NCBI GenBank assembly: GCA_964539135.1
Contig: CAZIFG010000004.1
Span: 43,250-107,249, forward strand
Source of the DNA: an uncultured Rickettsiales bacterium
GTDB taxonomy: Bacteria; Margulisbacteria; Marinamargulisbacteria; GCA-2716485; CAZIFG01
DNA length: 64,000 nt
Reading direction: 5' to 3'
Positions 16,872 to 42,390 of this stretch are shown here, piece by piece. Position numbers and translations under genes: made by a program. How positions within the stretch are numbered: position 1 is the first letter of the stretch; every line of letters begins with the position of its first letter. Below the pieces are notes generated by a model. That model did not search any database. It had not been told where the DNA came from and worked only from the letters and a program-made list of their open reading frames with translations.

Positions 16872-19233
16872 AGACTATAGCGAGGATGAAGACTCCGAAG
16901 CGGAAGAAAGTGAGGGGCCATCGGGTTTAGAGTTTGTCATGAAAAACGGGGGTGTCTTAGCCACGTTGATAGGAATGTCCTACTTAGGTCAAGAGGTCAC
17001 TTCTCAGGATCTTCCTAGGATGAGACAGACAATGAAAGAACTTGCAGGACACTGGGACCTTTTTAAAAGAGCACCAGTGTATCGCTATATAAGCGTAGAA
17101 TTAGTGGATAAACGAAAAGTTCAGACGACGGGAATCCCATATAAAAAAGAGAATCTCGATAAAAGACCTACGGTAACCGTGGCGGATATAACCTCTCTTC
17201 TAGAGGTTGAGTGTCAAGGGGTGGGATCTCAAGAAAGTCGCCCACAGTTAGCAGCTGAAATTGTTAGAAATCTGAGGCGATTAGATGTTTTAGATATCTA
17301 TGGCAACATAGACCCCAAAAAATTAGAAGAAAATTTACCCTATGTCGAACACACACGATTAGTTCCAAATGAGCATAATTCGGTTAAAAAGCGTCAACAA
17401 ATGGAAGAATCAGGCGGGTGGTTTTCGGGAAGCAAAGGTGCGGATTGTCATACCGCAAAAACCTTTTATTATCTAACAAAAGGCGTAGAAGGGATTACAG
17501 AAACAAATCAAGAAACAGTAGAAAAAAAATTGATTGAATTTTTAAATCAAAAGATGGAAACTTACAGAGTAAAAAAAGCAGTTGTTACCCCTGAAGGGCT
17601 TCAGTACAAAACAAGTCGAGAAAGTAGCAATGTTCAAGCCGCCAGAGGAGATGACCGCCTTCTAGCTTTTTTACAACAAGAAAACGCCTTAAATGGGGGC
17701 GAAAAAGGAGCAGATAATGATACAGTTCTGCATCTGAGTACCCGCGTCAGAAATACCCGAGCTGCCGCACTATTCATACAAAGAAATCCAGAACTTCTGG
17801 GAGCTGAAAACGACAAAGGGGAAAGGCCTATCGATTTTATTTTTGAATCCGGATTAGAAGCCTTATATACCTTAACAGGCGCCCATCTCTCGACAATAAA
17901 GTTAAATAAAGAGGGAATATCTCCTGTTTATTTTGCCATAGGGACGTACTTGGAGCTAGCCTCTCGATTATTTTACGAAGGACATGACAAGATTCCCTCT
18001 GACATAAAAGAAAAACTGGAAGGGCCTATTCGCTATTATTTTCAACACATGCCAAAAATGGGACATATCCCACTTTCTGCGCTTGTAGACCCTAAATGGC
18101 TACAAATGGATACGGTAGTGGAACAGAACACCACTGGCCATCATCCTTATCACCCTATGGCCTGGGGATATACTGGCCTAATGATGCACAAATGGGAAAA
18201 AGGTAAGGATGAACCTATTCATAGGGTATGTATTGTATTTGAACATGAAAAAAGAGTGGTTTTAGGCCTAGTGAAGATGCTTCTAGATGCCAAAGATGTG
18301 ATTTATTTTCAAGATGCAGGCTCATTGCAGATCATAGGTCTATTGTATGCCATTCATCATGAGGCTTTCGAATTACTGTTACCCGCACTTGAACAAAGAG
18401 ACAGCCTGGCTCTAGACATGTTAAGAGGGGCCCAAAATTATGGACAATTTGAATGCCTGGAAAGGGTGTTAGAAAAAAGAGGTGGATTGGCAGGGTTGGT
18501 TGAAAGAGAGCCCCAACGTGTGGCAGAAATTTTGGTTAAAACAATAGAGGGGAATGCCTTCGGAAAAACAGATTTTTTTATCAGAAACAGCGGTCTTTTT
18601 ATCAATTGCCTGTCTCAAAAAGATAAAGAAGGGGTGCCTTATGTATTTAAATGGGTGACACAAGCAGACGAAAGCACCTTAGAAACCTTTAAATCCTATG
18701 TAAGAGCGGCAAGCTACCTCCAAACAGAAGCGGGAGACTCTTTAGGGCTGTATTTAGTCAAAAGGCATAAAGATAGAGAAGCAGATTTAGAGGTGTTAAA
18801 GAAAAAGTGGCCTGCATTAAGGAGCTACTTAAAATGGGCAGCGCCAAATCAAAAAGGAGAGTCTTTATGGACTTGCGTTTTAGGTGAAATGAAATCTAAA
18901 TGGAAATTAGAAGCATTCTTTTCAAGCGTCATCGGAACAGCCGAGGAACTCCAAAGCCTGGCCGATCAGCTCCTTCATCACAGTGATGGATTAAAAGAAG
19001 AAAAAATGAAGGAACTCTGGGATCTGTTACTTCAAAAAGGATTGGATCTAAACCAAACGGTAGCGGGCAAAACAGTCGTGGATAGAGCGTTGGAACAAAG
19101 AGATATCAGAACCATCAACCTACATGCAAAAATCATAAAATGGTTAAGGGATGAGAAAGGCGGTTGCGTAGCATATTACAGCACACCAGAAGCGAGAGCG
19201 GCACTTCTTCCCAATTATAGGGATATTTTTTGA
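16828..19233 (+). CDS. Large orphan protein with an acidic N-terminus and an ankyrin-like repeat segment
   Basis: 801-aa ORF. The segment DTVLHLSTRVRNTRAAALFIQRNPELLGAENDKGERPIDF resembles the ANK consensus (TpLHlA...lL...ga..n..d..G.tPl). The true start is uncertain. Confidence 0.6.
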   Translation: MEIVPAPRPVESGGEDYSEDEDSEAEESEGPSGLEFVMKNGGVLATLIGMSYLGQEVTSQDLPRMRQTMKELAGHWDLFKRAPVYRYISVELVDKRKVQTTGIPYKKENLDKRPTVTVADITSLLEVECQGVGSQESRPQLAAEIVRNLRRLDVLDIYGNIDPKKLEENLPYVEHTRLVPNEHNSVKKRQQMEESGGWFSGSKGADCHTAKTFYYLTKGVEGITETNQETVEKKLIEFLNQKMETYRVKKAVVTPEGLQYKTSRESSNVQAARGDDRLLAFLQQENALNGGEKGADNDTVLHLSTRVRNTRAAALFIQRNPELLGAENDKGERPIDFIFESGLEALYTLTGAHLSTIKLNKEGISPVYFAIGTYLELASRLFYEGHDKIPSDIKEKLEGPIRYYFQHMPKMGHIPLSALVDPKWLQMDTVVEQNTTGHHPYHPMAWGYTGLMMHKWEKGKDEPIHRVCIVFEHEKRVVLGLVKMLLDAKDVIYFQDAGSLQIIGLLYAIHHEAFELLLPALEQRDSLALDMLRGAQNYGQFECLERVLEKRGGLAGLVEREPQRVAEILVKTIEGNAFGKTDFFIRNSGLFINCLSQKDKEGVPYVFKWVTQADESTLETFKSYVRAASYLQTEAGDSLGLYLVKRHKDREADLEVLKKKWPALRSYLKWAAPNQKGESLWTCVLGEMKSKWKLEAFFSSVIGTAEELQSLADQLLHHSDGLKEEKMKELWDLLLQKGLDLNQTVAGKTVVDRALEQRDIRTINLHAKIIKWLRDEKGGCVAYYSTPEARAALLPNYRDIF

Positions 19234-22240: not shown

Positions 22241-24589
22241 ATGAATATTACGCGAAAAGTAATTTCGCTTCGCAGTCGTAGTCGCCGTAGAAAAAAATCT
22301 AAGCAGCAGTCTTCTTTAGCAAATCGCAGTTGGAACGCACTTAGATGGGCCCTAAAAGGTGTTATACTCACAAGTCTTGGGGTCATTGTGGGGGGGAGCG
22401 GGAGTGGCGTGCCTAGAAAATTTGGTGAAAATTCATTCCCACAATGTAATCCCCTCGCAGTGTTGCCCGACAATTATCGCATGCCTTTGCCTCTCATGGA
22501 TATAGAGTTGCCTGCGGATTCACGCTATATTACTTACGCCAATATGGATGTATTTCACGGGAGTGTTTATGCCCATACAGGTTGCCCCAAATATGGGGTT
22601 TACGTCTTTCAAAACGTCGGTTCTTTTTATGGATCCTTTTATGAAAATACCAAATTGAAAGAGGGCACCATGTTTTTTTTGAACGGAGAGGTCTTTAAAG
22701 GCACCTTTCATGAAAGTACAGGCGATAAAAAAGAAGGCACTGTAACCTACGCGGATGGCACATCAAAAACCGGATCCTTCGAGGCCTATACCAATGTATT
22801 TACACCATACCAATCATACAAAGTTAAGGCAGCTATAGTTGGATTGTTAGGGGGTGCGTTTGCGATCTATAAATATGGGCGCATGCTCAATTTGGCTCGT
22901 GTATTAGATCCCATTCGAGAGTGGCAGAAAAGACGAATGCAAGCCCAACAGAAACGCACTGTTGAAACTGAACAAGGAAAATTGGACAGAAAAGTGGAAA
23001 GATATAAAGAAAAACTGAATCTAACGCTTCAGGAAGGACTTCAAGATTTTGGTATTGCTTTAAATAATCAGGGGGTACTGGAATGGCCTCATCCTCAAAA
23101 CGGATTTATCATACTCCACTACCAAGGAAGTCCTGTTTTTGTGACTGAAAAAGCGAGAGCTTACATACAGGAGAGGATTCAAACCTATAGAAGAAACTGT
23201 ATAAAGGCTATTGATAGTGTTTCCATTACACCTCAAGAGACGCGTTGTCTTGGTATAGAAGCGAAATTTAAATCTGCACTTGAAAAACTGCTTCAGGATA
23301 AAGACGTCCTATTAAAGAAAGCTAGAGAAAGAGTCAGAGCTCTGAATGTTCATGACCTGTTTAAGGTTCAAGGTCTCTCTATGCATTTCGTGCAAGAAAC
23401 AGCACGGATGAATCTGAGGGCCACTAAAACCCCCATCAACTATGATGGGGTTTTCGTTTCAACCCTAGCGCTACTGAAGTCAAAACTGCCTAAAGGTCAC
23501 GGGATGTCCCCTATTAAAGCGGCCTTTAACGGTATTTATGGGGCGGATGCTATCCAGACGCTGCTTGAGGCTCAGCTTACCGCTGAAGAAACACTGCAAA
23601 CTGCTCGAGATAATTTAGACCATCTACTCCATGTATTAAACACCTCTGTGGAGACCCCTTTAGGCGGAGACCTTCCCGCTCTTACCTTACAAGTCCATGA
23701 GGCAAATGCCGTATTTCTGACAGAAAAAAACAATTACGACGAGATTTGCAACAGATTAAACGAGTCTCAGCGCCAGGCTTTGAAGTTGATCTCGACGCTA
23801 AGCCTACAGGATCTTGACCGTTTAGAAAGTGAGTCCACTCACGATGCCATTGCATTTCTACGCGAAAATTTTACATTCGCTGAACATAGAAGAATAAAAA
23901 TAGGAGATGCTGCATCGGGCGCTGGTCATGGCACTTCCGATTCTGTTGAAGATCCTGGAACACCCTGTTCTCCTAGATTTAGTTTGAGTGCCTCAGAACC
24001 GGTGACGCTAAGGGATCTCTGTTTTTCAATGTCAGATCATCTTAATGCCAGCGGTTTTGTATTTGTACCGTTCGTGCCAGGTGCGCGTAGTGATATCAAC
24101 GCTTTAATGTCGTGTCACTTTGGATTTTTTGCGCTGGCCTTAAGACTTACGCCTAATCTAATGGGGATTATTCAACAGAGACAGACCGCAAAGTTACAGC
24201 ATGAATCGTCGTTTTTTTTATATCACGCACATGGCGATAGATCTACTTTTTTACAGGGAAAAAAACATCGGGAATTAACGACTGCTGGATATCCAGAAGA
24301 TCTATTGAGAACCCCCCTGAATCTCTCTATTTCCTCATTTATCCATGAAGGCTTAGCACGAATTAATGCCTTTGCTATCGACAAAAGTCTGGAGCCTATA
24401 GACTTACCCCCTGAGAAACTGCACTTAATGGGGGATTACATTCAGCGTCATGGAAGAGAGATTCAAGCGCGATCTGGAGGCTCTCACTCTAAATGGGTAG
24501 CGCCTTTCGCATGGCCTCTCGATGTGAGTTCGGAGCGAGACCTAAAAAGTATTTATATAGGATTGTTTATATTCATGCGTTGTCGATAA
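22241..24589 (+). CDS. Large orphan membrane-anchored protein with MORN-like repeats
   Basis: 782 aa. It has a basic N-terminus (RSRSRRRKKSK) and a TM segment. The repeats fit Y/F-x-G-x-F...G (GVYVFQNVGSFYGSFYEN..EGTMFFLNGEVFKGTFHES..EGTVTYADGTSKTGSFE). A long coiled-coil-like region follows. Confidence 0.6.
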   Translation: MNITRKVISLRSRSRRRKKSKQQSSLANRSWNALRWALKGVILTSLGVIVGGSGSGVPRKFGENSFPQCNPLAVLPDNYRMPLPLMDIELPADSRYITYANMDVFHGSVYAHTGCPKYGVYVFQNVGSFYGSFYENTKLKEGTMFFLNGEVFKGTFHESTGDKKEGTVTYADGTSKTGSFEAYTNVFTPYQSYKVKAAIVGLLGGAFAIYKYGRMLNLARVLDPIREWQKRRMQAQQKRTVETEQGKLDRKVERYKEKLNLTLQEGLQDFGIALNNQGVLEWPHPQNGFIILHYQGSPVFVTEKARAYIQERIQTYRRNCIKAIDSVSITPQETRCLGIEAKFKSALEKLLQDKDVLLKKARERVRALNVHDLFKVQGLSMHFVQETARMNLRATKTPINYDGVFVSTLALLKSKLPKGHGMSPIKAAFNGIYGADAIQTLLEAQLTAEETLQTARDNLDHLLHVLNTSVETPLGGDLPALTLQVHEANAVFLTEKNNYDEICNRLNESQRQALKLISTLSLQDLDRLESESTHDAIAFLRENFTFAEHRRIKIGDAASGAGHGTSDSVEDPGTPCSPRFSLSASEPVTLRDLCFSMSDHLNASGFVFVPFVPGARSDINALMSCHFGFFALALRLTPNLMGIIQQRQTAKLQHESSFFLYHAHGDRSTFLQGKKHRELTTAGYPEDLLRTPLNLSISSFIHEGLARINAFAIDKSLEPIDLPPEKLHLMGDYIQRHGREIQARSGGSHSKWVAPFAWPLDVSSERDLKSIYIGLFIFMRCR

Positions 24590-29089: not shown

Positions 29090-29634
29090 TTATTGGACTT
29101 ACAGGGCGTGCCGGGTCTGGAAAAACAGAAGCGCAAAATATTATTGCAGCTGAATTTGATGTGGAGGTTCTAGATTTAGATGCCATAGGGCATGTCCTTT
29201 TGAAGGAAGAAGCCATCAATCAAAGTCTGATAGCCGTTTTTGGAGACACTATTTTGACAGATGGGAACATAGATAGAAAAAAATTAGGCAAGCAGGTCTT
29301 TGAAGATGCGGCAGCTTTAAGTCTTTTAAATGCCGTCATACATCCCCAAATCACAGAGTACGTACGCCTGAAGTTAAGAAACCAAAGCAAAACGGTTATC
29401 ATTGTAGGGGCCTTATTAAAAGAACTTCAGTTAGAAGGAGAGTGTGATAAGATCCTTGTGATTGATGCAGACGATGCCGATATTTTGAGGCATAGACCAG
29501 AGTTAAGTCTCATTTTAAAGCATCAACGCACGAGGGCTGAGTATCAACAGCATGCAGATATCGTGATTTTAAACACTTTTTCCTCTCAATATAAAGAAAA
29601 AATTAAATGCATTTTAAATAAAATAATATTATAA
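29086..29634 (+). CDS. coaE: Dephospho-CoA kinase
   Basis: IGLTGRAGSGKT P-loop. Typical length of 182 aa. Confidence 0.85.
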   Translation: MIIGLTGRAGSGKTEAQNIIAAEFDVEVLDLDAIGHVLLKEEAINQSLIAVFGDTILTDGNIDRKKLGKQVFEDAAALSLLNAVIHPQITEYVRLKLRNQSKTVIIVGALLKELQLEGECDKILVIDADDADILRHRPELSLILKHQRTRAEYQQHADIVILNTFSSQYKEKIKCILNKIIL

Positions 29635-29686
29635 AATTGAATTAATTATTATACCATCTCTCTATTCCACTCAAAAAAGGTTTTTT

Positions 29687-30737
29687 ATGTTAAAAATAAT
29701 TTCATTAGACAGGTCAATGATTCAAAAAATCGTTATTTTTTCAGCTCGGGAGCATTTTTTACAAGGAAATGAAGGCGGGGTTTTCCCAGAACGAGAGTAC
29801 CCTCAGTCTCTAACACATCTGCTGCATTCTAGAATATCTTGCGATATCATATATCCTAAAGAAGCGGTATCGTCAGAGCATGAAAAACTATTGGAGTATA
29901 TGAGAAAGGCATCTTCGGAATATAGAGAGGTCAATAAAGCCATGATAGGGGAGGGCATTCAATTAAGTGTAAGCCTAAGAGATGGAATGGGGTTCGAAAT
30001 CATAGCAGAAACAGACATAAAACAAGGCAGTTTTTTAGGCATATACGCAGGAGAATATACCCTGATAATATATCAAAAAGATGTTCTACATTTACTCTGT
30101 TTGAATCAATGGTCTATGAATGGAAAGCAATGCACTTTAAGTGAGATTGGTATAAATATGGCTTTAACAACATTAAAACCCATTCTGGAAGAAAGGGATC
30201 TAAAAGTATTAGAGGAAAACCATTTAAGAAACAAAAATAATTTGATAAATAATTATACAAGACCCTATGCCTTTCAGGTAGAGCTTCAGAAAGATGCGGA
30301 TAAAATAAAAAAAAATAGAGAGATATATATTAAAAATAGATATGGCAGGTATCAAATCTATAGCCCTCATCATAGATGCAGTGCATAATGGAAATTGGAC
30401 TCGACATATGAATCACGCAGAAACAGAGGCAGAAGAAACAGAGGCAGAAGAAACAGTGGAACAAAGAAATTGTATATATAAAGGACAGCCTGTCCCTGTT
30501 TTTTTTGCCAAAAGAGACATAAAAGCGGGAGAAGCCCTAAGATTCACATATGCAAACTCGGTGACTGAAGAAATGCTTCGGCGAGAATCAGAACAATTAG
30601 AATTGGATTTAATCAAAGGCTTAAAAAATACAGAAATAAGCAATGAGATTCAAAAAATATATGAAAAAAAATTAGCCCAATCTATTATCAATGTAGAGCT
30701 ATTTGAGTATGATAAAACCCACTTAGACCAAATTTAG
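29687..30737 (+). pseudogene. SET-domain protein gene split into two ORFs (29687..30388 and 30342..30737) by a frameshift at an A9 tract
   Basis: ORF1 carries the N-terminal SET region GMGFEIIAETDIKQGSFLGIYAGEY. ORF2 carries the C-terminal SET region IDAVHNGNWTRHMNHA ... AKRDIKAGEALRFTY. Deleting one A from the A9 run at 30307-30315 joins the two frames. Confidence 0.6.
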
Positions 30738-30738
30738 G

Positions 30739-32169
30739 CTAGTTTTTTTTGGGAAAGACAAATTGAATAAAATCCAAAATGGGGCCAGAAAGAAAGGTTG
30801 TTGTGAGCGCCATGAGTACCATCATAGTAAACATGGTAGGAGATAAGACTCCTAAATCATAGCCAATATTAAGGACAACCAACTCTACCAAGCCTCTGGC
30901 GTTCATGAGAGCACCTAAAGAGAGAGCGTCTGACCATTTAAGTCCAACAAGCCGTGCAACAATCCCACAGCCGCCTAGTTTTCCCAAAATAGCAACGGTA
31001 ATAACAGCCGCCGTCATAATCCAAAGGCTACTATGATTAAGCGTGTCAATTTGGGTTCTAAGGCCACTAAAGGCAAAAAAGATAGGTAAAAACATCAACA
31101 AACTAACATCTTCTACTTTTTCAGTGAGTGCTGTTTTAAAGCGTATGCTTTGAGGCATCACAACGCCAGCTAAAAAAGCCCCAAAGAGGGCATGAATGCC
31201 GATAATATCGGATAAATAAGCAGAAACGAGCATGGTAAAAAAAGAAACAGCTACAATCCCTTTATTGGGATGATCAGATTCCAATTGATTTAAGCAGGCT
31301 TTTCGAATGAGAGGCCGAACCAAGTACAGCATCACGCCCACAAAAATAAATGAGAGAAAAATAGTAAAGAGAGCACTGCCAATGCCACCTGCTTTAACAA
31401 TAGCAATGACGCATGCCAATAAACACCAGGCCACAACATCATCAGCAGCAGCACAGGTAATAGCAATAGTGCCTAAGGACGTATTTTTAAGACCGCGTTC
31501 TTGGATAATACGAGCCAGAACAGGAAATGCCGTGATGCTCATAGCCACACCGATAAAAAGGGCAAAAGACATAAAGGGGACTCCAGACGGAGCGCAGCTG
31601 GGATAAAGATAATACGCTAGAAGAACACCCAGTGTAAGTGGTACCAAAATACCCGCCTGACTGACAATAAAAGCTTGATGCATTTTATTTTTAAGCTTTG
31701 TGACATCCAGTTCCATACCAATAATAAACATAAATAAAACCAATCCAATTTGACTTAAAAATTGAAGATTAATTAAAGATTCGGGCGGAAATAAAAAATG
31801 AAAAACTTGAGGAAAAAAGAGTCCCAACAAAGAAGGTCCTAATGCAATACCTGCCAAAATTTCACCAATAACAGAGGGTTGTCCTAGTTTTTTAGCCACA
31901 GTGCCAAACAAACGGGCAATGAGTAGAATAACCATCGTTTGTAAAAGCAAAAGGCTAAAGGGGTGCTGAATATTATGAGAAAATTGTTCAACAATTTTAG
32001 AGACGGATCCTAAGGCCATAGGCTCTGTATCGACGCTGGTAGCGGTAACAGAAACCGATGCTTGAGAGAGATTTTGAAGACTCAATAGACTCCCTTTTTT
32101 AATAATATAAAAAAGGGCATAAATAGAGGAAATGAGCATTAAAAAATAAGCAACAAAGGTTTTTTTCAT
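30739..32169 (-). CDS. Cation:proton antiporter (CPA2/Kef-type Na+/H+ exchanger family)
   Basis: Polytopic membrane protein of about 12 TM helices with typical Na_H_exchanger sequence character. The start is taken at MKKTFVAYF, codon 14 of the track ORF that ends at 32208, so it is uncertain. Confidence 0.75.
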   Translation of the reverse strand: MKKTFVAYFLMLISSIYALFYIIKKGSLLSLQNLSQASVSVTATSVDTEPMALGSVSKIVEQFSHNIQHPFSLLLLQTMVILLIARLFGTVAKKLGQPSVIGEILAGIALGPSLLGLFFPQVFHFLFPPESLINLQFLSQIGLVLFMFIIGMELDVTKLKNKMHQAFIVSQAGILVPLTLGVLLAYYLYPSCAPSGVPFMSFALFIGVAMSITAFPVLARIIQERGLKNTSLGTIAITCAAADDVVAWCLLACVIAIVKAGGIGSALFTIFLSFIFVGVMLYLVRPLIRKACLNQLESDHPNKGIVAVSFFTMLVSAYLSDIIGIHALFGAFLAGVVMPQSIRFKTALTEKVEDVSLLMFLPIFFAFSGLRTQIDTLNHSSLWIMTAAVITVAILGKLGGCGIVARLVGLKWSDALSLGALMNARGLVELVVLNIGYDLGVLSPTMFTMMVLMALTTTFLSGPILDFIQFVFPKKN

Positions 32170-33900: not shown

Positions 33901-34485
33901 CTAGGCAATGGATATTAATGAATAAAAGCGTCCAGCCGCAGCGCCTTCCTTTCGATATGAAAAATAAAGGTCATTATTACACACTGTGCAGGCTCGAGCG
34001 GCATAGAAAGCGGTATCCGAAAGTGATAAAACGGCATGAAGCTGAGCCAGATTTTGAGAAAAAAGATCATAATGGGTGTGTGTTTTGGCATCAATTTCAT
34101 AATGAGCCGCACAAATACAAGGTCCAAACCAGACCTGATACCCTTCTTTTGTGCCCAGTCTATGCGTCATGGCCATGAGTGTTTTACGCAAAATATGACG
34201 TTCGGTTCCTTTTCGACCTGCATGAATGGCAGCAAGAGTGTGTGTGGTTGGGTGTGCAATTAAAATGGGTAAACAATCCGCTGTCTTAACAGACAAAATG
34301 GTGTTGGGGCATTGTGTAATCAGCGCATCGGTGTCTGGAATAAGCGTCGTCGCAATATCTGTTGCCCAGTGAATATGATCAGAATGAGTTTGATCCATGC
34401 GAATGAGGATATAATCGGGGGCCTGAGCAGCGGCAAGGTCCTCCAGTGTGTCATTACGAGTACCAAAACGAACCCTAATAGGCAC
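33901..34485 (-). CDS. pgeF: Peptidoglycan editing factor PgeF / YfiH (DUF152, laccase-domain) family
   Basis: HSDHIHW, TADCLPI and HAGRKGT motifs. I propose GTG 34485 as the start because AAGGAGG lies 6 nt upstream. The track start 34611 would overlap dprA by 137 nt. Confidence 0.7.
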   Translation of the reverse strand: MPIRVRFGTRNDTLEDLAAAQAPDYILIRMDQTHSDHIHWATDIATTLIPDTDALITQCPNTILSVKTADCLPILIAHPTTHTLAAIHAGRKGTERHILRKTLMAMTHRLGTKEGYQVWFGPCICAAHYEIDAKTHTHYDLFSQNLAQLHAVLSLSDTAFYAARACTVCNNDLYFSYRKEGAAAGRFYSLISIA

Positions 34486-35653
34486 AAGCGGCCTCCTTTT
34501 TCTGATAGTGCTGTCCGGATTGGCGTACAACCAGACCTTTAAGTTCCATAAAGGTGAGATATTGGAGCACTTCTTGCAAGGAAAGTCCGGTTTGAAGCAC
34601 AAGATCATCAATCCCTAAAGGATGATTTCCCATACAACTTAAGAGTTGAAATTCTGGACCTGAAAGGGACGGCTCTATAGAAGGGCCTTCGTCTTGAATA
34701 GAAGCAACAGGGAGGGGCGCCGGCGCGTGGGTGGGCAATACCAAGGGGGACGTAGGGAGCTGCGCTAAAATATCAGAAAGGTGTGTGGCACAGGTTGCGC
34801 CATCTTGAATAAGCGCATGAACACCTTGAGACGCGGCATCAAAAATAGAGCCCGGGACGGCAAAGACTTCTTTATTTTGATCTAAAGCCAATTGCGCTGT
34901 AATGAGAGCGCCACTTTTCAGACCGCCTTCTGTGACTAAAACACCTAAGCTTAGCCCGCTCACCAATCGATTGCGTTGTGGAAAATGCAGGGGTTTAGGC
35001 CCTGTTCCTAAAGGATATTCAGAGAGGAGAAGTCCCTGTTCGGCAATACGAGCAGAAAGTGCTTTATTTTCAGCCGGATAAACCTGATCGATCCCGGTTC
35101 CAATCACCGCAATAGTGCCATATCCAGCATCCAGAGCAATGCGATGGGCGATAGCATCGACACCCTTAGCAAGGCCAGAGACGAGAGTAAAATACATGAG
35201 GAGCTGATGGCTAAAATATTCAGTGACAGATTGACCATAAGAGGTCATGTCTCGAGGGCCAACAATCGCAAAAAGGGGCGTATCTAAAAGCGATAACTGT
35301 CCCCGATAAAACAGCAAGAGAGGGGGATCTGAAAGTTCTAAAAAGGGCGCGGGATAAGCATCATCTTCTAGTGTTAACAGCCCAATTCCCTCTGAGGCAC
35401 AGCGGGCTAAAATAGAGGCCGCATCAAAGGTGGTATTAAGATGACTCAAGGTACTTTGGCCCTTAGGCGTTGCCGCTAATCTTGGGAGCAATGTGGGGAA
35501 GGCCTCTAAAAAATCAGATTCTGTGGGGTATTGAGTAAAGAGTTCAAAAGCAAGGACAGGTTTATAGTAAAAAAGCGTATTAAGTCTAAGAAAATAAGCC
35601 GTGTTATCCATAAGTTTGTGTGACATACCTTTTAGTGATGAGATCAAGTTCAA
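34475..35653 (-). CDS. dprA: DNA processing protein DprA (Smf)
   Basis: GLAKGVDAIAHR and FPQRNRLVSGLS motifs, plus a C-terminal winged-helix-like tail. Alternative in-frame ATG starts at 35626 and 35611 would shorten the overlap with dxr. Confidence 0.85.
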   Translation of the reverse strand: MNLISSLKGMSHKLMDNTAYFLRLNTLFYYKPVLAFELFTQYPTESDFLEAFPTLLPRLAATPKGQSTLSHLNTTFDAASILARCASEGIGLLTLEDDAYPAPFLELSDPPLLLFYRGQLSLLDTPLFAIVGPRDMTSYGQSVTEYFSHQLLMYFTLVSGLAKGVDAIAHRIALDAGYGTIAVIGTGIDQVYPAENKALSARIAEQGLLLSEYPLGTGPKPLHFPQRNRLVSGLSLGVLVTEGGLKSGALITAQLALDQNKEVFAVPGSIFDAASQGVHALIQDGATCATHLSDILAQLPTSPLVLPTHAPAPLPVASIQDEGPSIEPSLSGPEFQLLSCMGNHPLGIDDLVLQTGLSLQEVLQYLTFMELKGLVVRQSGQHYQKKEAACAY

Positions 35654-36767
35654 GAATATCTTCTAAGGTATAGTTTGTCAATGGAGAATATTTCGATGTT
35701 GTAGCTTCCACAATCTTAAAAATATCCAAAAATGAAATTTTTTCAGCTAAAAAGAGGCCAACAGCCGCTTCGTTGGCAGCATTCATGACCGCAGAAAGAG
35801 AGGACCCTAATTTCCCAATATCAAAGGCAAGTTTTAAGAGGGGAAATTTTTGAAAATCAGGTTTAAAAAATTCAATAGCGCCCATTTCAAAAAGATCGGG
35901 ACGTGGCCATGGAAAGGGTAATTTATCGGGATAAAACAAGGCATATTGAATAGGAAAACGCATGTCTGGGGGACCCATTTGCGCCAAATAAGTGCCATCT
36001 ACAAAATCAACGACACTATGAACAAGACTGGGCGGATGAATAGCGACGTCCAATTTTTCATAGGGGATATTAAACAGATGGTGGGCTTCAATAACTTCCA
36101 GACCTTTATTCATCATGGTGGCAGAATCAATCGAAATTTTAGCGCCCATAGACCAATTGGGGTGAGCAAGGGCATTGGCACGTGTAATGGAGGCAAATTC
36201 GGCAAGCGGTTTTTTAAAAAAGGGGCCGCCTGAAGCCGTTAAAATAAGACGTTGAATTTGAGCCGGGTCTTCCTGAATGCCTGCCAAGCATTGTTTAAGA
36301 GCCGCATGTTCAGAGTCTACGGGAATAATAGGAACCTTCTTTTTTCGCGCTAAGTCCATAATCAAGTCCCCAGCAGAAACTAAAACCTCTTTACACGCAA
36401 GGGCAATGGGAATGCCTTTGTCGATGGCGCGATAGGTAGGCTTTAAGGAAGCGGTACCCACAATGGCAACCAAAAGGAGATCTACAGTGCTTGTCGCCAG
36501 TGTGCAAAGCCCGTCATCCCCCCAAAAAAGGTCAATCTGAAGATGATGACTTTGAATAAAGGCGTGAAGTTCTGCAAGATCAGACTCATGGCGAATACAA
36601 GCCACTTGAGGTTTATAGGTTAAAAGTTGGTGTTTAAAAAGAGTAAGGTTAGACCCGGCACTAAGGCCAACAATAGAAAAAGCGCCTGGGAAGGCATCGA
36701 CGACCTGCAAGGCTTGAACCCCTATAGAACCTGTAGACCCTAAAATGGAAAGTTTTCGAGGACTCAT
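35604..36767 (-). CDS. dxr: 1-deoxy-D-xylulose 5-phosphate reductoisomerase
   Basis: LGSTGSIGVQAL NADPH motif and PVDSEHAA. Confidence 0.93.
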   Translation of the reverse strand: MSPRKLSILGSTGSIGVQALQVVDAFPGAFSIVGLSAGSNLTLFKHQLLTYKPQVACIRHESDLAELHAFIQSHHLQIDLFWGDDGLCTLATSTVDLLLVAIVGTASLKPTYRAIDKGIPIALACKEVLVSAGDLIMDLARKKKVPIIPVDSEHAALKQCLAGIQEDPAQIQRLILTASGGPFFKKPLAEFASITRANALAHPNWSMGAKISIDSATMMNKGLEVIEAHHLFNIPYEKLDVAIHPPSLVHSVVDFVDGTYLAQMGPPDMRFPIQYALFYPDKLPFPWPRPDLFEMGAIEFFKPDFQKFPLLKLAFDIGKLGSSLSAVMNAANEAAVGLFLAEKISFLDIFKIVEATTSKYSPLTNYTLEDILELDLITKRYVTQTYG

Positions 36768-37537
36768 CGAATCAAGAAGAAATAAAGGGGTAAAACAAAT
36801 TGAAAGCTATCAATACGATCATAAATGCCGCCATGACCGGGTAAAATAGAGCCAGAATCTTTGACATTAAAATGGCGTTTAACCAAGGATTCATGGATAT
36901 CCCCTCCAAGAGCAGCTAGGGTAATCACAAGAGAAAGGAAGAGACGATGAGGAATGGAGTAGTGAAGAAAATGACCAAAGATCAAGGCAATGCACATCCC
37001 AAATAGAATCCCACCAAGAAGACCCTCACGTGTTTTTTTGGGGCTAATGGGGGTTAATAAATGGCGACCAAAAAACTTACCTGCAAAGTAAGCGCCGGTG
37101 TCACTGGCCCAAATAATACCACACAGAAACAGGCAATGATAAAGACCAAGGTCGATATCTCTTAGAAAATACAAAAAAGGAATGCAGGCCGTAACCCAAA
37201 GGATTACTTTTAAAAAGGAAACAAAGGGGTGAGGCGCTAAAAAAAGGCGTTTAAGGTACAATTCAGAAAGGCCCCAAACACACATTAAAACGGGCAGAAT
37301 AAAAATAGAAAGGCTACTGGTAACACGGTAAAAATATAGGCTTAAAACAAAAAGAAGGGTGTTTAAAACGCTGGCTAAAACGAGGTAGGGTTTGGGAAGT
37401 GCGTAGAGTCGGCAAAGTTCGAAAGTTAAAAGGACGGAAATCGTGCCCAAAAAAAGAAAAAAGGGAACTTTACCAAAAATAATAACAAAAAGACCAAGTC
37501 CAAGAAGTGAAAATCCGGTAATGATACGGGATTTCAC
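36764..37537 (-). CDS. cdsA: Phosphatidate cytidylyltransferase
   Basis: C-terminal signature SLVKRHFNVKDSGSILPGHGGIYDRIDS. Confidence 0.88.
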   Translation of the reverse strand: MKSRIITGFSLLGLGLFVIIFGKVPFFLFLGTISVLLTFELCRLYALPKPYLVLASVLNTLLFVLSLYFYRVTSSLSIFILPVLMCVWGLSELYLKRLFLAPHPFVSFLKVILWVTACIPFLYFLRDIDLGLYHCLFLCGIIWASDTGAYFAGKFFGRHLLTPISPKKTREGLLGGILFGMCIALIFGHFLHYSIPHRLFLSLVITLAALGGDIHESLVKRHFNVKDSGSILPGHGGIYDRIDSFQFVLPLYFFLIR

Positions 37538-38274
37538 TTAAGGCCTCCAAAGCGACGATCTCGATGTTGAAATTGGTGTAAAATAGACACAAAGTCAGAT
37601 TTTCCAAAATCAGGCCATAAAGTATCAATAAAAAAGAGTTCCGCATAAGAGAGTTGCCACAACATAAAGTTACTCAGTCTATGATCGCCACCTGTTCGAA
37701 TTAAAAGATCGGGGTCTGGAATGCCTGCGGTGTAGAGATGTTTTTCGATTTCAGCTTCCGTAAATGTGTGACACTGAGACATAGCATGCGCCAGTTCTCT
37801 GCGGCCGCCATAGTTAATCATTAAATTTAATTGGAGTGTCGTGCAATGCGCGGTTTCTGTCTCCGAGTTTTTAAGACCGGCGGCAAGAGAAGGCGAAAAT
37901 TGAGACCAATCTCCCAAAGAGCGAACGCGGACACCATTGGACAATAGGGCAGGGAGTTCCAGCGTCGTCATGTCTTCAATTAAAGACATTAAAAAATCCA
38001 CTTCTTCTTGAGGGCGACTCCAATTTTCAGTAGAAAAGGTATAAACCGACAAATAATGAACATTATAATCGGCACAAAGCCCAATGGTTCGACGCAAGGT
38101 TTCAGCCCCTCGAACGTGACCTTCTGTGCGTTTAAGACCTCTTTCTTTTGCCCATCGTCCATTTCCATCCATAATCACAGCAATGTGTTTTGGAATGCGC
38201 TCTGGATCCAGATCATCCTGTTTGCATAGTGTTTCAAGGGGGGTTTGACGCTCAAGAAGTCCTGTAATCGTCAT
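37534..38274 (-). CDS. uppS: Undecaprenyl diphosphate synthase
   Basis: HIAVIMDGNGRWA and RTGGDHRLSNFMLWQ. Confidence 0.92.
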   Translation of the reverse strand: MTITGLLERQTPLETLCKQDDLDPERIPKHIAVIMDGNGRWAKERGLKRTEGHVRGAETLRRTIGLCADYNVHYLSVYTFSTENWSRPQEEVDFLMSLIEDMTTLELPALLSNGVRVRSLGDWSQFSPSLAAGLKNSETETAHCTTLQLNLMINYGGRRELAHAMSQCHTFTEAEIEKHLYTAGIPDPDLLIRTGGDHRLSNFMLWQLSYAELFFIDTLWPDFGKSDFVSILHQFQHRDRRFGGLK

Positions 38275-38277
38275 GGC

Positions 38278-38820
38278 TTAAACAGTCAAAATTTCTTTTT
38301 CTTTTTTAAGAACCAATTCGTCTATTTTTTTAGAGAAAGATTCTGTAGAGGCCTGAACCTCTTCCTGCATTTTTTTAGACTCATCTTCTGTCAGTTCTTT
38401 TGCTTTTTCACTGACTTTGATTTTATCAATAGCATCCCGACGAACATTGCGTAGCGCCACTTTACCTTCTTCAGCGTAAGCATGAAGGACTTTGACCAAT
38501 TCTTTACGGCGTTCTTCGGTAAGTTCCGGTAAACGGATCCGAATCATACCCCCATCTGTATTGGGATTAAGTCCCAGTTGAGAGGTTTGAATGGCCTTTT
38601 CAATGCTTTTAATGGCACCTTGATCAAAGACATTCAAGACAAGCGTTGTGGCTTCAGGCGCAGAAACAGACGCCAATTGCTGAAGCGGAACTTTAGATCC
38701 ATAATACTCGACAACAACGCCGCTCAACATATCGGGATTGGCGCGATTGGTTCTTAACGTGGCAATATGCAGTTTAAAAGAGTCCACGGTTTTTTGCATT
38801 TTTTCATTGAGTTCGCTCAT
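38278..38820 (-). CDS. frr: Ribosome recycling factor
   Basis: 180 aa. Typical RRF sequence: [18 protein letters not shown] ... [16 protein letters not shown]. Confidence 0.93.
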
Positions 38821-39539
38821 TTCTGATCTCCAATATAAGTACCCACTTTTTCTTGTAAAAGGGCCTTTTGAATATTACCTTCTTTCGAGAGGTTAAACAC
38901 CACAATCGGAATATTATTTTCCTGGCTTAAGGTTAGTGCCGTCGTATCCATAACGTGTAAATTTCGAGTTAATACATCTTGATAAGTTAAGGACTCAAAA
39001 AACTGAGCATCGGCATGTTTCATGGGGTCTTTATCATAGACGCCATCTACCTTAGTGGCTTTAAAAATAACATCTGCCTTAATTTCAGCGGCACGCAAGG
39101 CAGCCGTCGTATCGGTTGTAAAATAGGGATTTCCGGTACCGCCTGCAAAAATCACAATACGACCTTTTTCCATATGGCGAATAGATCGTTGCAAAATAAA
39201 GGTTTCGGCAACTTCTCGAACATGAAGCGCGCTTTGAACCCGAGAGGGGACATCCACGCGGCTAAGGGCATCCTGAAGAGCCAAGGCATTCATAATCGTT
39301 GCAAGCATGCCTGTGTAGTCAGCAGTCACTCTATCCATGCCATTTTCAGAAGCAGAAAGCCCCCTAAAAATATTGCCACCGCCGATTACAATGGCCAAAT
39401 CGATACCCAATTGATAAGCCGATTTAATTTCATTGGCTAAAAACAAAAGAAAATGAGGGTCTATCCCATAGTCTCTTTCGCCTTTAAAAGCTTCTCCACT
39501 GAGTTTAAGTAAAACGCGTTTATATTTAATTCGTGTCAT
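38817..39539 (-). CDS. pyrH: UMP kinase
   Basis: [11 protein letters not shown] and [21 protein letters not shown]. Confidence 0.93.
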
Positions 39540-39581
39540 AATGGCGATATTCTATCAGCTTAAAAATAGAATAACAATAAT

Positions 39582-40571
39582 GAGACTGTTGCGACATGCC
39601 TACGTTTGGATCAGACAGATGGCTTTGGAATGAGATGTTGGTAGGCCTTTTGAACCAGCATAAAGACATATGCATCTCCTCCTTTATCAGGATGGTGTTG
39701 AAGCATTAATGCTTTGTAGGCACGTTTAATCGTATTGACAGAGGCGGTGGAAGGAAGGCTGAGAATACGAAAGGCTTTTGCATCAGTCATTTCTGGTGGA
39801 TCCAATGGAGACATAAATTCGGAGACAAAAGGAAGGGCAGAGGGAACGCCATAATGAGTGATGCCAAGTGTGACAAGATCAGGAGCAGCTGTGCGTGTCG
39901 CCTTATAATGCCAGGATAAATCACGTGGCGGCGTAAATTCATGAACCCCATAAGCACGGTCAACACCTTTGCGAACGATAGGATCTATAATAGACTTGGT
40001 TAAAAAGACAAAAGAAACCAACATAAAGGTAAGAAAGAGCGTTTCCGGGGTAGCCTCATGGAGGGCATGGCCGAGGTAGGCAATAAACACGGCAACTTTA
40101 AAGGCCGGATGTGTTGGGGGGGGTGCTGAAGGCGAGGTAAGGGCATCAATATCTGTTCTAAGTGTGGGGCGACTGGATAACACATAGGCAGAAGACGATA
40201 AAAAAATCTGCTTTAAGGCAGAGAGTCGATCTGTAAAAATACGAACTTCATAAGGGGGGATCCCGCCTTTATAGTGAGACAGCATCTTAAGGTGCCGAGA
40301 AAAACTATCAAATAAAGCATCACATTTGAAGTCCTTATAAGTTAGTTTTGCCCGTTCAGTAAGATCCTTCAAAGTCGGGGTTCTATTTCCCCCTTCCAGC
40401 ATAAAAAAGGAAAGCAAGGTTGAAATATAAAGCTTTTCAAGCTCAGAATAGGATTTAGATTCACAAACAGGGGCTAAAGAAAGGACTTTAAACATAATCG
40501 GCTCCTAGAAAGTTTCGTTATTCTTATTTGGGTTATCGAGATTTGGAATAAAATAATTTCACAACAGTCTC
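39582..40571 (+). mobile_element. 990-bp composite version of the repeat family. Matching TIR ends enclose one passenger ORF (the J-domain protein).
   Basis: The left end at 39582-39614 is GAGACTGTTGCGACATGCCTACGTTTGGATCAG. The right end at 40540-40571 is ...GGAATAAAATAATTTCACAACAGTCTC. Both tips carry the same variant, GAGAC/GTCTC. The flanking 5-mers are ATAAT and ATATT. Confidence 0.65.
39611..40495 (-). CDS. Orphan membrane protein with a C-terminal J domain (DnaJ-like, HPD motif)
   Basis: C-terminus FRILSLPSTASVNTIKRAYKALMLQHHPDKGGDAYVFMLVQKAYQHL. There is a central hydrophobic segment, and AGGAG lies 6 nt upstream of the ATG. The stop codon lies in the left repeat end. Confidence 0.65.
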   Translation of the reverse strand: MFKVLSLAPVCESKSYSELEKLYISTLLSFFMLEGGNRTPTLKDLTERAKLTYKDFKCDALFDSFSRHLKMLSHYKGGIPPYEVRIFTDRLSALKQIFLSSSAYVLSSRPTLRTDIDALTSPSAPPPTHPAFKVAVFIAYLGHALHEATPETLFLTFMLVSFVFLTKSIIDPIVRKGVDRAYGVHEFTPPRDLSWHYKATRTAAPDLVTLGITHYGVPSALPFVSEFMSPLDPPEMTDAKAFRILSLPSTASVNTIKRAYKALMLQHHPDKGGDAYVFMLVQKAYQHLIPKPSV

Positions 40572-40574
40572 ATA

Positions 40575-40603
40575 TTGGTGATACGTCGTATTTATGGCAT
40601 AAT
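40575..40603 (+). promoter_or_regulatory. Candidate promoter of rseP (TTGGTG-17-CATAAT)
   Basis: -35 at 40575-40580 and -10 at 40598-40603. The rseP ATG (40613) is 9 nt after the -10 and has no SD. The -35 begins 3 nt after the repeat end. Confidence 0.4.
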
Positions 40604-40612
40604 AAAACCACT

Positions 40613-41692
40613 ATGTTAATAATCATCACCATTATCGCCTTAGGGCTTGTTATATTTATTCATGAATTGGGCCATCTATGGGCGGCAAAAGCCTGTGGTA
40701 TTGGCGTCCATGAGTTCAGTATTGGAATGGGACCTAAGGTCTTAGGCAAAAGAATAAACGGAACAGACTATAATTTAAGACTATTGCCCTTCGGGGGATT
40801 TGTGAAATTGGCGGGCTTAGATGAAGACAAAGAGGCACCTCCTATTGCGGATCACCTAAATTACAGAAAGAAGCCACTCTACAAACGCTTTATCGTCATT
40901 GTGGCCGGATCTGTTATGAATATTATCCTGGGTTATGTTCTGTTTACGGGCGTGTCTTTTGGAATGGGGATTCCGGAACCGACAGGAATCATTGAACATG
41001 TGGTCAACAATACACCAGCTGCTCAGGTGGGCCTAAAAGAAGGCGATGAAATTATAAAGGTAGATGCTAAACCCTTGGCCAAAGAAAATTTAGTGAAGGT
41101 GATCCAGCGCACAAAAGGCAAAGAAATGAATTTAACCATCAAACGAGACAATAAAATCTTTGACGTTAAAATTACACCTGAAAAAAAATCAGAGAAAAAG
41201 TGGATTTTAGGGCTGATGTTAAAAATTAACCATCAAAAAATCCCCCTTTTGGAGGCCTGTGTTCAAGGCGGAGTCCAAACCTTAGATCAAATTAAAATGA
41301 TGCTCGTGAGCGTCAAACTATTGGTGACAGGACAGGTTTCCGTCTCTCAAATGACAGGGCCTGTAGGCATTGTTCAATTTGCATCGTCTCAATTGGACAG
41401 TGGATTCTTTAGATTTTTAAACGTCATGGCCTTAATTACCTTGAGTTTAGGGATTATGAATTTACTTCCCTTTCCCGTATTAGATGGTGGGCACTTGATG
41501 TTTTTACTCCTTGAGGGACTAAGAGGAAAACCCCTGTCAGAACGGGTAGAGCTTTGGATTGCCAATATTGGCGCGGGGCTTTTAATTACATTGATGGCCT
41601 TTATTATTTTAAATGATGTTATAAAATGGAAAGAAAGAGGCGAGTTATTCAAACGCTTTCAATCAAGTATAATAAAAGAGAAAGGGAAGTAG
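40613..41692 (+). CDS. rseP: RIP zinc metalloprotease RseP (site-2 protease, M50)
   Basis: HELGHLWAAK, a PDZ domain, and NLLPFPVLDGGH. Confidence 0.9.
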   Translation: MLIIITIIALGLVIFIHELGHLWAAKACGIGVHEFSIGMGPKVLGKRINGTDYNLRLLPFGGFVKLAGLDEDKEAPPIADHLNYRKKPLYKRFIVIVAGSVMNIILGYVLFTGVSFGMGIPEPTGIIEHVVNNTPAAQVGLKEGDEIIKVDAKPLAKENLVKVIQRTKGKEMNLTIKRDNKIFDVKITPEKKSEKKWILGLMLKINHQKIPLLEACVQGGVQTLDQIKMMLVSVKLLVTGQVSVSQMTGPVGIVQFASSQLDSGFFRFLNVMALITLSLGIMNLLPFPVLDGGHLMFLLLEGLRGKPLSERVELWIANIGAGLLITLMAFIILNDVIKWKERGELFKRFQSSIIKEKGK

Positions 41693-41706
41693 GGTGTTAG
41701 GCACGC

Positions 41707-42387: not shown

Positions 42388-42390
42388 AAG

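What the first reader, a model, noticed from the sequence alone, without database searches (positions are those of the whole stretch)
30293..30345. SET-domain gene interrupted at an A9 homopolymer: phase variation, transcriptional slippage, decay or sequencing error
Frame 1 reads ...YAFQVELQKDADKIKKNREIY... and terminates at 30388. The next frame is open from 30309 and continues ...KIDMAGIKSIALIIDAVHNGNWTRHMNHA...AGEALRFTY. That stretch is the C-terminal half of a SET domain, whose N-terminal half (GMGFEIIAETDIKQGSFLGIYAGEY) lies in frame 1. Removing one A from the A9 run at 30307-30315 fuses the two into one ~349-aa SET protein. Runs of nine or more A are known sites of slipped-strand mispairing, giving phase-variable ON/OFF genes. 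They are also known sites of RNA polymerase slippage that rescues frameshifted genes in AT-rich symbionts.
Basis: partly seen in the sequence, partly recalled or inferred. Interest (0 to 1): 0.55.

Follow-up and report, generated by a model that had tools for sequence, protein, structure and literature searches.

The report
SET gene split by one extra A
A gene for a SET-domain protein methyltransferase in an uncultured marine-type bacterium is split in two by one extra A in a run of A's; the break is real and most likely a recent ordinary inactivation.

Summary
An A9 run at 30307-30315 separates ORF-A (29687-30388, 233 aa) from the next frame (open from 30309, ends 30737). Removing one A gives a 349-aa protein with a complete Pfam SET domain (41.8 bits, profile 1-104/105). 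It is collinear across the junction with an intact 311-aa paralogue found in the same samples.

The frameshift is not an assembly artefact. Four further assemblies (three Logan runs and one ENA metagenome, the latter with 3 SNPs elsewhere) all read A9. In addition, 74 of 86 A/T runs of 7 or more lie in unbroken ORFs.

A/T runs in this window stop sharply at 8: 61 of length 7, 24 of length 8, 1 of length 9, none longer. About 16 runs of 9 or more were expected. The only A9 is the frameshift site, which points to one A inserted into an ancestral A8.

No intact allele, no orthologue, no tract-length variation and no recoding signals were found. The organism is a Margulisbacteria relative with 42% GC and otherwise intact genes, not an AT-rich decaying symbiont.

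Best reading: a young frameshift pseudogene of a redundant accessory gene. Some RNA-polymerase slippage (A8 or A11 transcripts) may leak full-length product. Programmed slippage or phase variation remain possible but unsupported. Interest is low.

The parts
29687..30737 (+). Whole disrupted SET-domain gene. With A8 it would encode 349 aa: a conserved N-terminal region (about residues 1-90), a SET domain (residues 102-288) and a C-terminal helical tail.
   Evidence: Pfam SET 41.8 bits, full profile. (collinear with intact paralogue P0003, 30-34% identity). (single-stretch profile match to EHMT2/SUV39 SET domains).
29687..30388 (+). ORF-A as encoded (233 aa, = P0001). It carries the N-terminal region and the SET N-half with the GxG (GMG 100-102), YxG (YAG 120-122) and YAF (194-196) motifs. 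A 23-residue out-of-frame tail follows the run, ending at TAA 30386-30388.
   Evidence: After the run the coding score in this frame falls to -0.25, while the +1 frame scores +0.18.
30307..30315 (+). A9 homopolymer, the frameshift site. It is the only A/T run longer than 8 in the 64-kb window.
   Evidence: A9 is identical in L001-L003 and L016-L019.
30309..30737 (+). ORF-B frame: the SET C-half (IDA 229-231, RHMNHA 239-244, GEALRFTY 281-288) plus the C-terminal tail. The frame opens after TAA 30306-30308. The first ATG is at 30342 (131 aa, = P0002).
   Evidence: SET 30 bits, profile 48-104; coding score 0.35 against a genome mean of 0.37.
30419..30456 (+). Perfect 15-bp in-frame tandem repeat (2.5 copies, ETEAE-ETEAE-ET) directly after the NH motif of the SET domain. 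The paralogue has a 6-residue gap here.

Best explanation
One extra A was inserted by replication slippage into an ancestral A8 tract. This tract sits inside a lineage-specific SET-domain (protein lysine methyltransferase-type) gene of an uncultured Margulisbacteria-related bacterium.

The insertion is a real, fixed feature of this strain's genome. It separates the cofactor-binding N-half of the SET domain (ORF-A) from the NH motif and catalytic-tyrosine C-half (ORF-B), so the encoded 233-aa product cannot be an active methyltransferase. The gene is most likely a very young pseudogene of a dispensable copy, because an intact paralogue exists.

A9 is at the length where bacterial RNA polymerases begin to slip. 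A small fraction of transcripts with A8 or A11 would still give full-length protein, but as an incidental leak rather than a designed mechanism.

- **Shown:** the anatomy, the reality of A9, the absence of any intact allele, and the avoidance of runs of 9 or more.
- **Inferred:** the direction of the mutation (A8 to A9), loss of function, and leaky rescue.
For: **One gene, one lesion**
- The fused product has a full-length Pfam SET hit whose score and span match the intact paralogue almost exactly: 41.8 bits over residues 102-288, against 44.1 bits over 104-284.
- It aligns collinearly to P0003 across the junction without loss of material.
- All four SET motifs are retained.
- Coding potential switches frame at the run.
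- The crossing point is confined to 30309-30385 by the stops in the two frames.

**Real, not an artefact**
- A9 is identical in three Logan assemblies (SRR7369924, SRR7369912, SRR17828886) and in ENA ERZ3430527 NODE_605.
- The ENA contig differs by 3 SNPs elsewhere, so it is not a copy of the same consensus.
- 74 of 86 A/T runs of 7 or more sit in unbroken ORFs.
- All neighbouring housekeeping genes are intact.

**A8 ancestral**
- A/T run counts are 151, 61, 24, 1, 0 for lengths 6, 7, 8, 9 and 10 or more.
- About 16 runs of 9 or more were expected and 1 was seen (Poisson P about 2e-6).
- The same cut-off at 8 appears in the paralogue contig L004.
- A8 is a tolerated length and restores the frame.

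**Dispensable**
- An intact paralogue occurs in the same samples, with similar coverage (7.4x against 6.1x in the contig names) and tetranucleotide correlation r = 0.87.
- The gene is compositionally atypical: GC 0.33-0.36 against 0.40-0.45 in the flanks.

**No sign of design**
- No RNA structure flanks the run.
- No intact 349-aa allele exists among about 15 billion proteins.
- No orthologue was found with which to test conservation.
Against: - Both halves are otherwise free of stops and keep every catalytic motif. That is also what a gene still used through slippage or phase switching would look like.
- The A9 state is shared by two slightly different consensus sequences, so it is not brand new.
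- In a genome that purges runs of 9 or more, a persisting A9 could be read as retained on purpose.
- Only consensus sequences were examined.
- The structure prediction failed (pLDDT 37), so fold integrity of the fused protein rests on sequence profiles only.
Confidence: 0.58

Rival explanations
1. Slippage-dependent expression. The frameshifted A9 is maintained, and RNA polymerase slippage yields two products: a truncated 233-aa (or 210-aa) protein and a full-length 349/350-aa SET enzyme. This would resemble Shigella mxiE/spa13 or Citrobacter tssM1.
For: - A9 is at the length where A/T-run slippage becomes appreciable, and slippage frequency rises exponentially with run length (PMC5574713).
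- tssM1 needs the same direction of correction (deletion of one A or addition of two). It reaches about 20% at A11 (PMC4256274).
- A8 and A11 both give full-length product here.
- Both halves are otherwise pristine.
- It is the only run of 9 or more in a genome that avoids them.
- The state is shared by two slightly different consensus sequences.
Against: - Single-base insertions dominate at A/T runs, and deletions are rarely associated with such runs (PMC5574713). Here +1 A gives an immediate stop (210 aa), so the productive events are the rarer ones.
- No stimulatory hairpin was found.
- The intact paralogue has no comparable tract at the equivalent site.
- No orthologue exists to show conservation.
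Confidence: 0.13
2. Phase variation. The tract is a contingency locus that switches the SET protein ON (A8/A11) and OFF (A9/A10) by reversible slipped-strand mispairing during replication.
For: - The homopolymer lies inside the coding sequence of an accessory protein.
- A single-step change restores the frame.
- The tract is the longest in the window.
Against: - Every assembly that carries the neighbouring coaE gene has the OFF state. That is 6 contigs read, of which 4 were inspected, from at least 4 samples.
- No ON allele was found anywhere.
- Contigs run through the tract without breaking.
- A9 is short for a contingency tract.
- mutL is present and intact.
- No other candidate tract occurs in 74 kb of this genome.
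Confidence: 0.12
3. Sequencing or assembly artefact. The true tract is A8 and the gene is intact.
For: - Coverage is low (about 6x in the ENA contig name).
- Homopolymers are classic error sites.
- A8 is the common tract length in this genome.
Against: - The same A9 appears in five assemblies made by different pipelines from different runs.
- 24 A8/T8 tracts and 61 runs of 7 do not disrupt genes.
- No alternative contig with A8 exists in the collections.
Confidence: 0.07
4. Programmed +1 (or -2) ribosomal frameshifting on the AAA_AAA run fuses the two frames.
For: Lys-tRNA can re-pair on AAA in the +1 frame, and frameshifting on A runs is known (PMC5009743).
Against: - There is no slow or stop codon in the A site after the run; the next codons are AAU AGA.
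- There is no upstream SD-like stimulator and no downstream structure.
- The classic A_AAA_AAA -1 shift leads straight to TAG at 30316-30318.
Confidence: 0.03

Closest known systems
Frameshift pseudogenes at homopolymer tracts (ordinary slipped-strand indels in bacterial genomes)
   Same: A single-base length change in an A run splits an otherwise intact ORF. An intact paralogue remains and there are no further lesions.
   Different: Here the host genome otherwise shows a hard ceiling of 8 on A/T runs. The lesion therefore created the only slippage-prone tract in 64 kb.
Transcriptional-slippage genes: Citrobacter rodentium tssM1 (A11), Shigella mxiE/spa13/spa33/mxiA, Thermus dnaX (the last from my own knowledge)
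   Same: A poly-A tract of 9 or more lies inside the coding sequence. The downstream domain is encoded in the +1 frame, and restoration needs -1 or +2 A, as in tssM1 (PMC4256274).
   Different: There is no experimental or comparative evidence of use. The tract is at the minimum length, no orthologues conserve it, and the most frequent slippage event (+1 A) gives a stop.
Poly(A)-tract rescue of frameshifted genes in Buchnera/Blochmannia (Tamas et al. 2008, from my own knowledge; context in PMC3017870 and PMC5574713)
   Same: A frameshift at a poly-A tract that RNA polymerase infidelity could partly correct.
   Different: Those genomes are 26-30% GC, rich in long A tracts and carry many such lesions. 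This window is 42% GC, has one tract of 9 or more and one broken gene.
Bacterial SET-domain proteins (Chlamydia NUE, Legionella RomA/LegAS4 and similar; from my own knowledge)
   Same: A Pfam SET domain with GxG, YxG, NH and catalytic-Tyr motifs. The nearest distant relatives in genomes are in Simkaniaceae/Chlamydiia MAGs.
   Different: Identity to those is only about 30-38% over the C-terminal 60-80 residues, with no synteny. The protein belongs to a two-member orphan family with its own N-terminal region and a 100-residue SET-I insert. Its substrate is unknown, and the paralogue is coupled to a histidine kinase rather than to secretion genes.

Membership tests
SET-domain methyltransferase (Pfam PF00856) | Profile score above the curated threshold over the whole domain | tested here: met
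   The fused protein scores 41.8 bits against a cut-off of 22.4, over profile 1-104/105. As encoded, only ORF-B passes (30 bits, C-half), and ORF-A has no hit.
SET-domain methyltransferase (Pfam PF00856) | Conserved motifs GxG, YxG, (R)xxNH and ELxF/Y-x-Y with the catalytic Tyr | tested here: met
   G102, Y120/G122, N242/H243 and G281...Y288 are invariant in alignment A2. The motifs are split between the two ORFs.
SET-domain methyltransferase (Pfam PF00856) | Pseudoknot beta-fold | tested here: inconclusive
   The AlphaFold2 model has pLDDT 37 and is unusable. No fold search was run.
SET-domain methyltransferase (Pfam PF00856) | Lysine methyltransferase activity | not testable with these tools
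   Needs biochemistry.
Phase-variable contingency locus | Hypermutable simple repeat in the coding region or promoter | tested here: met
   A9 lies in the coding sequence, although it is at the short end for such tracts.
Phase-variable contingency locus | Tract-length polymorphism with both ON and OFF alleles among samples or reads | tested here: not met
   All five sequences are A9. No ON protein exists in the collections. No A7-A11 variant was found in JGI metagenomes. Read-level data were not available.
Programmed transcriptional slippage gene | A/T run of about 9 or more at the frame junction | tested here: met
   A9 lies at 30307-30315. The frame junction is confined to 30309-30385.
Programmed transcriptional slippage gene | Frameshifted arrangement conserved among homologues | tested here: not met
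   The only homologue, P0003, is a single intact ORF without a tract at the equivalent site. No orthologues were found.
Programmed transcriptional slippage gene | Heterogeneous transcripts and trans-frame protein | not testable with these tools
   Needs RNA and protein data.
Endosymbiont poly(A) rescue (Buchnera/Blochmannia type) | AT-rich reduced genome with many long A tracts and multiple frameshifted genes | tested here: not met
   GC is 42%. One run of 9 or more occurs in 64 kb where about 16 were expected. All other genes examined are intact.
Programmed +1 ribosomal frameshift (prfB type) | Slippery P-site codon followed by a slow or stop A-site codon, with an upstream SD-like stimulator | tested here: not met
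   The sequence reads AAA AAA AAU AGA. There is no stop or SD-like element and no structure.
Frameshift pseudogene | Reading frame broken relative to an intact homologue, with catalytic motifs separated | tested here: met
Frameshift pseudogene | No functional product or no selection on the sequence | not testable with these tools
   No orthologues are available for dN/dS and there are no expression data. The absence of further lesions means the pseudogene, if it is one, is young.

The most novel reading that the evidence does not exclude
In a Margulisbacteria lineage that otherwise purges every A/T run longer than 8, this single A9 is kept on purpose. It would act as a transcriptional-slippage (or phase) switch that sets the ratio of a truncated N-terminal protein to a full-length SET methyltransferase. 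That would be a recoded regulator in a phylum where no recoding has been described.
Probability: 0.12. Interest if true: 0.5.

Novelty: new member of a known kind. Interest (0 to 1): 0.22.

Why it matters
The main practical point concerns annotation. The two 'hypothetical proteins' in the databases (233 aa and 131 aa) are halves of one SET-domain gene and should be annotated as a frameshifted gene.

Two side points have modest value.

- The sharp ceiling of 8 on A/T runs is a clean example of selection against slippage-prone tracts in an uncultured lineage. It also gives a simple argument for polarising homopolymer indels.
- The tiny two-member SET family, with one copy coupled to a histidine kinase, is a lead on bacterial, possibly non-histone, SET function.

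If slippage-dependent expression were shown, this would add a recoding case in a little-studied phylum. Nothing here requires that.

Tried and rejected
- **Orthologue and allele search.** I used the word-indexed search twice, an exhaustive HMMER search of 1.84 billion representatives, GTDB genomes and JGI metagenomes by peptide and by DNA pattern with A7-A11. These returned only the two ORFs themselves, one 30%-identical paralogue and distant SET domains. No population or comparative test was therefore possible.
- **Chlamydial origin.** GC content and the Simkaniaceae SET hits suggested it, but I rejected it. There is no synteny. Frr and a 10-gene block match a Marinamargulisbacteria single-cell genome instead.
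- **Identity with 'Ca. Ruthmannia eludens'**, the Margulisbacteria symbiont of Trichoplax H2. I rejected this too. Its GC is 37.2%. Its coaE, pyrG, frr, plsY and mutL carry widely separated gene numbers (343, 399, 784, 1036, 244), whereas they are neighbours here.
- **Structure prediction.** With a 5-sequence alignment it gave pLDDT 37, so no fold search was attempted.
- **Stimulatory RNA structures** beside the run: none found.
- **Shine-Dalgarno test** for independent initiation of ORF-B: uninformative, because only 8 of 41 genes here have a strong SD.
- **Paper search** for the run accessions: no hits, so the sample type is unknown.
- **Plasmid search:** no match.

Full report
**Observation**

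The stretch 30307-30315 is exactly A9, flanked by T on both sides. ORF-A (29687-30388, 233 aa) ends at TAA 30386-30388. The +1 frame has TAA at 30306-30308 and is then open from 30309 to the stop at 30735-30737, with its first ATG at 30342 (131 aa). Any event joining the two frames must therefore lie between 30309 and 30385, and the A9 is the only long homopolymer in that interval.

Modelling different tract lengths gives these products:

| Tract | Product |
|---|---|
| A7 | 209 aa |
| A8 | 349 aa |
| A9 | 233 aa |
| A10 | 210 aa (TAG directly after the run) |
| A11 | 350 aa |

**The two ORFs are one SET gene**

- The A8 product matches Pfam SET (PF00856) over the whole profile (1-104/105, residues 102-288, 41.8 bits, E 1.6e-10). 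ORF-B alone matches only the C-terminal half (30 bits), and ORF-A alone matches nothing.
- An exhaustive HMMER search of 1.84 billion representative proteins found the two ORFs themselves (P0001, P0002) and one real relative, P0003. P0003 is 311 aa and intact, and aligns in one stretch to residues 5-305 of the fused protein (E 4e-23).
- BLASTP and MAFFT show 30-34% identity and collinearity straight through the junction, with no missing block.
- P0003 has the same architecture: SET at 104-284, 44.1 bits.
- In a five-sequence alignment the classical SET positions are invariant: G102 (GxG), Y120/G122, Y194/F196, D230/A231, N242/H243, G281 and Y288. The first three groups lie in ORF-A and the rest in ORF-B.
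- A profile of that alignment hits the SET domains of EHMT2, SUV39H2, DIM-5 and others in one stretch (E 3e-27). One member of the alignment is itself SUV39-like and helps that score.
- A log-odds codon score built from 52 ORFs of the window is positive for ORF-A up to the run (0.18) and for ORF-B after it (0.35, against a genome mean of 0.37). In the 69 nt after the run the ORF-A frame turns negative (-0.25) and the ORF-B frame is positive.

Neither encoded polypeptide can be an active SET enzyme on its own.

**Is the A9 real?**

- Exact look-ups of the 233-aa product and of the neighbouring CoaE protein returned contigs from three Logan assemblies (SRR7369924, SRR7369912, SRR17828886) and one ENA metagenome assembly (ERZ3430527, NODE_605, coverage 6.1 in its name). 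All carry the 233 + 131 aa split.
- The Logan contigs are 100% identical to the window over 3.4-5.7 kb, including the A9.
- The ENA contig has three substitutions, all in the sugar-transferase gene (two non-synonymous), no gap, and the same A9. It is therefore an independent consensus.
- 74 of the 86 A/T runs of 7 or more lie inside long unbroken ORFs.
- The roughly 60 genes of the window, including topA, mutL, lpxB, pyrC, lipA, plsY, gpsA, nadD, coaE, pyrG, dprA, dxr, cdsA, uppS, frr and pyrH, look intact.

A systematic homopolymer error is thus excluded and a one-off error is unlikely. I could not inspect reads.

**The run-length spectrum**

| A/T run length | Count in window |
|---|---|
| 5 | 308 |
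| 6 | 151 |
| 7 | 61 |
| 8 | 24 |
| 9 | 1 |
| 10 or more | 0 |

The step ratio is a steady 0.4 up to length 8. That predicts about 9.6 runs of 9 and about 16 runs of 9 or more, yet only one is seen (Poisson P about 7e-4 and 2e-6 respectively).

The paralogue contig L004 shows the same pattern: 12 runs of 7, 9 runs of 8, and none longer. This matches the known depletion of slippage-prone runs in coding sequence; E. coli has a single AAA_AAA_AAA in its coding sequence (PMC5009743).

The one exception in this window is the frameshift site. A8 is a common, tolerated length that restores the frame. The most economical history is therefore an A8 tract that gained one A.

**Organism and context**

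- The window is 42% GC.
- The ribosome recycling factor has its best named relatives in Candidatus Marinamargulisbacteria single-cell genomes (62% identity).
- A block of ten genes (ftsX-ftsE-rseP / pyrH-frr-uppS-cdsA-dxr-dprA-pgeF) is syntenic with SAG GCA_003265925.1 at 35-69% amino-acid identity. The organism is probably a Margulisbacteria relative.
- It is not 'Ca. Ruthmannia eludens' of Trichoplax H2. That genome has 37.2% GC and a different gene order.
- The distant SET hits in Simkaniaceae, Chlamydiia and Aerophobetes MAGs cover only the C-terminal 60-80 residues and are not syntenic.
- The SET gene sits between coaE and a convergent Na+/H+ exchanger. It is compositionally distinct: GC 0.33-0.36 against 0.40-0.45 on both sides.
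- The paralogue occurs in the same samples, at similar coverage, with tetranucleotide correlation 0.87 to the window. The within-window control is 0.93-0.95 and unrelated loci give 0.60-0.70. It is probably from the same genome.

**Mechanism**

I looked for signs that the frameshift is used.

- No RNA structure flanks the run (z = +0.9 upstream, +0.5 downstream).
- There is no slow or stop codon and no SD-like element of the kind that drives +1 ribosomal frameshifting.
- The -1 frame ends immediately at TAG.
- SD usage is too weak in this genome to judge independent initiation of ORF-B.
- No tract-length difference exists among assemblies, and no 349/350-aa allele exists in the protein collections. 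No DNA match with A7-A11 was found in JGI metagenomes.

Published data bear on how much rescue slippage could provide. Insertions at A/T runs rise exponentially with run length, single-base insertions dominate, and deletions are rarely associated with such runs (PMC5574713). Here +1 A gives a stop, so only the rarer -1 or +2 events are productive. The same direction of correction does work at about 20% in Citrobacter tssM1, but there the tract is A11 (PMC4256274). Some full-length protein is therefore physically plausible, probably at a low level.

**Verdict**

The finding is a real single-base frameshift in a lineage-specific SET-domain gene.

| Reading | Probability |
|---|---|
| Recent A8-to-A9 insertion producing a young pseudogene of a redundant copy, with incidental leaky rescue at most | about 0.58 |
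| Maintained slippage-dependent expression | about 0.13 |
| Phase variation | about 0.12 |
| Artefact | about 0.07 |
| Ribosomal frameshifting | about 0.03 |

The remaining probability (about 0.07) is left to readings I did not formulate. Discriminating among the listed readings needs read-level, RNA-level or protein-level data, or orthologues, none of which were obtainable here. This is an ordinary kind of event. The run-length ceiling and the small SET family are the only mildly interesting by-products.

Noticed in passing
whole window; also L004:1-10112: A/T homopolymers stop abruptly at length 8. The window has 61 runs of 7, 24 runs of 8, 1 run of 9 and none longer. L004 has 12 runs of 7, 9 runs of 8 and none longer. 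About 16 runs of 9 or more were expected in the window. This looks like strong selection against slippage-prone tracts.
   Followed up: partly
window 30419-30456: A perfect 15-bp tandem repeat (2.5 copies, encoding ETEAE-ETEAE-ET) lies directly after the NH motif of the SET domain. The paralogue has a 6-residue gap there. This is a second, in-frame slipped-strand event in the same gene.
   Followed up: partly
window 29250-30750: GC drops to 0.33-0.36 exactly over the SET gene, against 0.40-0.45 on both sides. The gene may have been acquired horizontally or may be evolving differently from its housekeeping neighbours.
   Followed up: no
L004:3660-6046: The intact paralogue (311 aa) overlaps the stop of a 484-aa HisKA/HATPase_c histidine kinase by 4 bp. 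It lies next to a terpene synthase and a response regulator. This hints that the SET family acts in bacterial signalling rather than on host histones.
   Followed up: no
window 40116-40123: A G8 run (C8 on the coding strand) lies inside an intact DnaJ-domain gene (39611-40495, minus strand). It is the longest G/C run in the window.
   Followed up: no
window 16518-19233 and 22241-24589: Two large ORFs (801 aa and 782 aa) have no Pfam or NCBIfam match. The 801-aa ORF is preceded by a 117-aa ORF that overlaps it by 44 nt in another frame, with no homopolymer at the overlap. This may be an overlapping gene pair or a second split gene.
   Followed up: partly
window 28082, 28104, 28524: The ENA assembly ERZ3430527 differs from the window by three substitutions in 5.5 kb. 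All three are in the sugar-transferase gene (I317N, a synonymous change at G324, and K464N).
   Followed up: partly
window 33901-43278 vs L015: There is ten-gene synteny (pgeF-dprA-dxr-cdsA-uppS-frr-pyrH / rseP-ftsE-ftsX) with a Marinamargulisbacteria single-cell genome at 35-69% amino-acid identity. The window genome was not among the GTDB species representatives matched by the SET patterns.
   Followed up: partly
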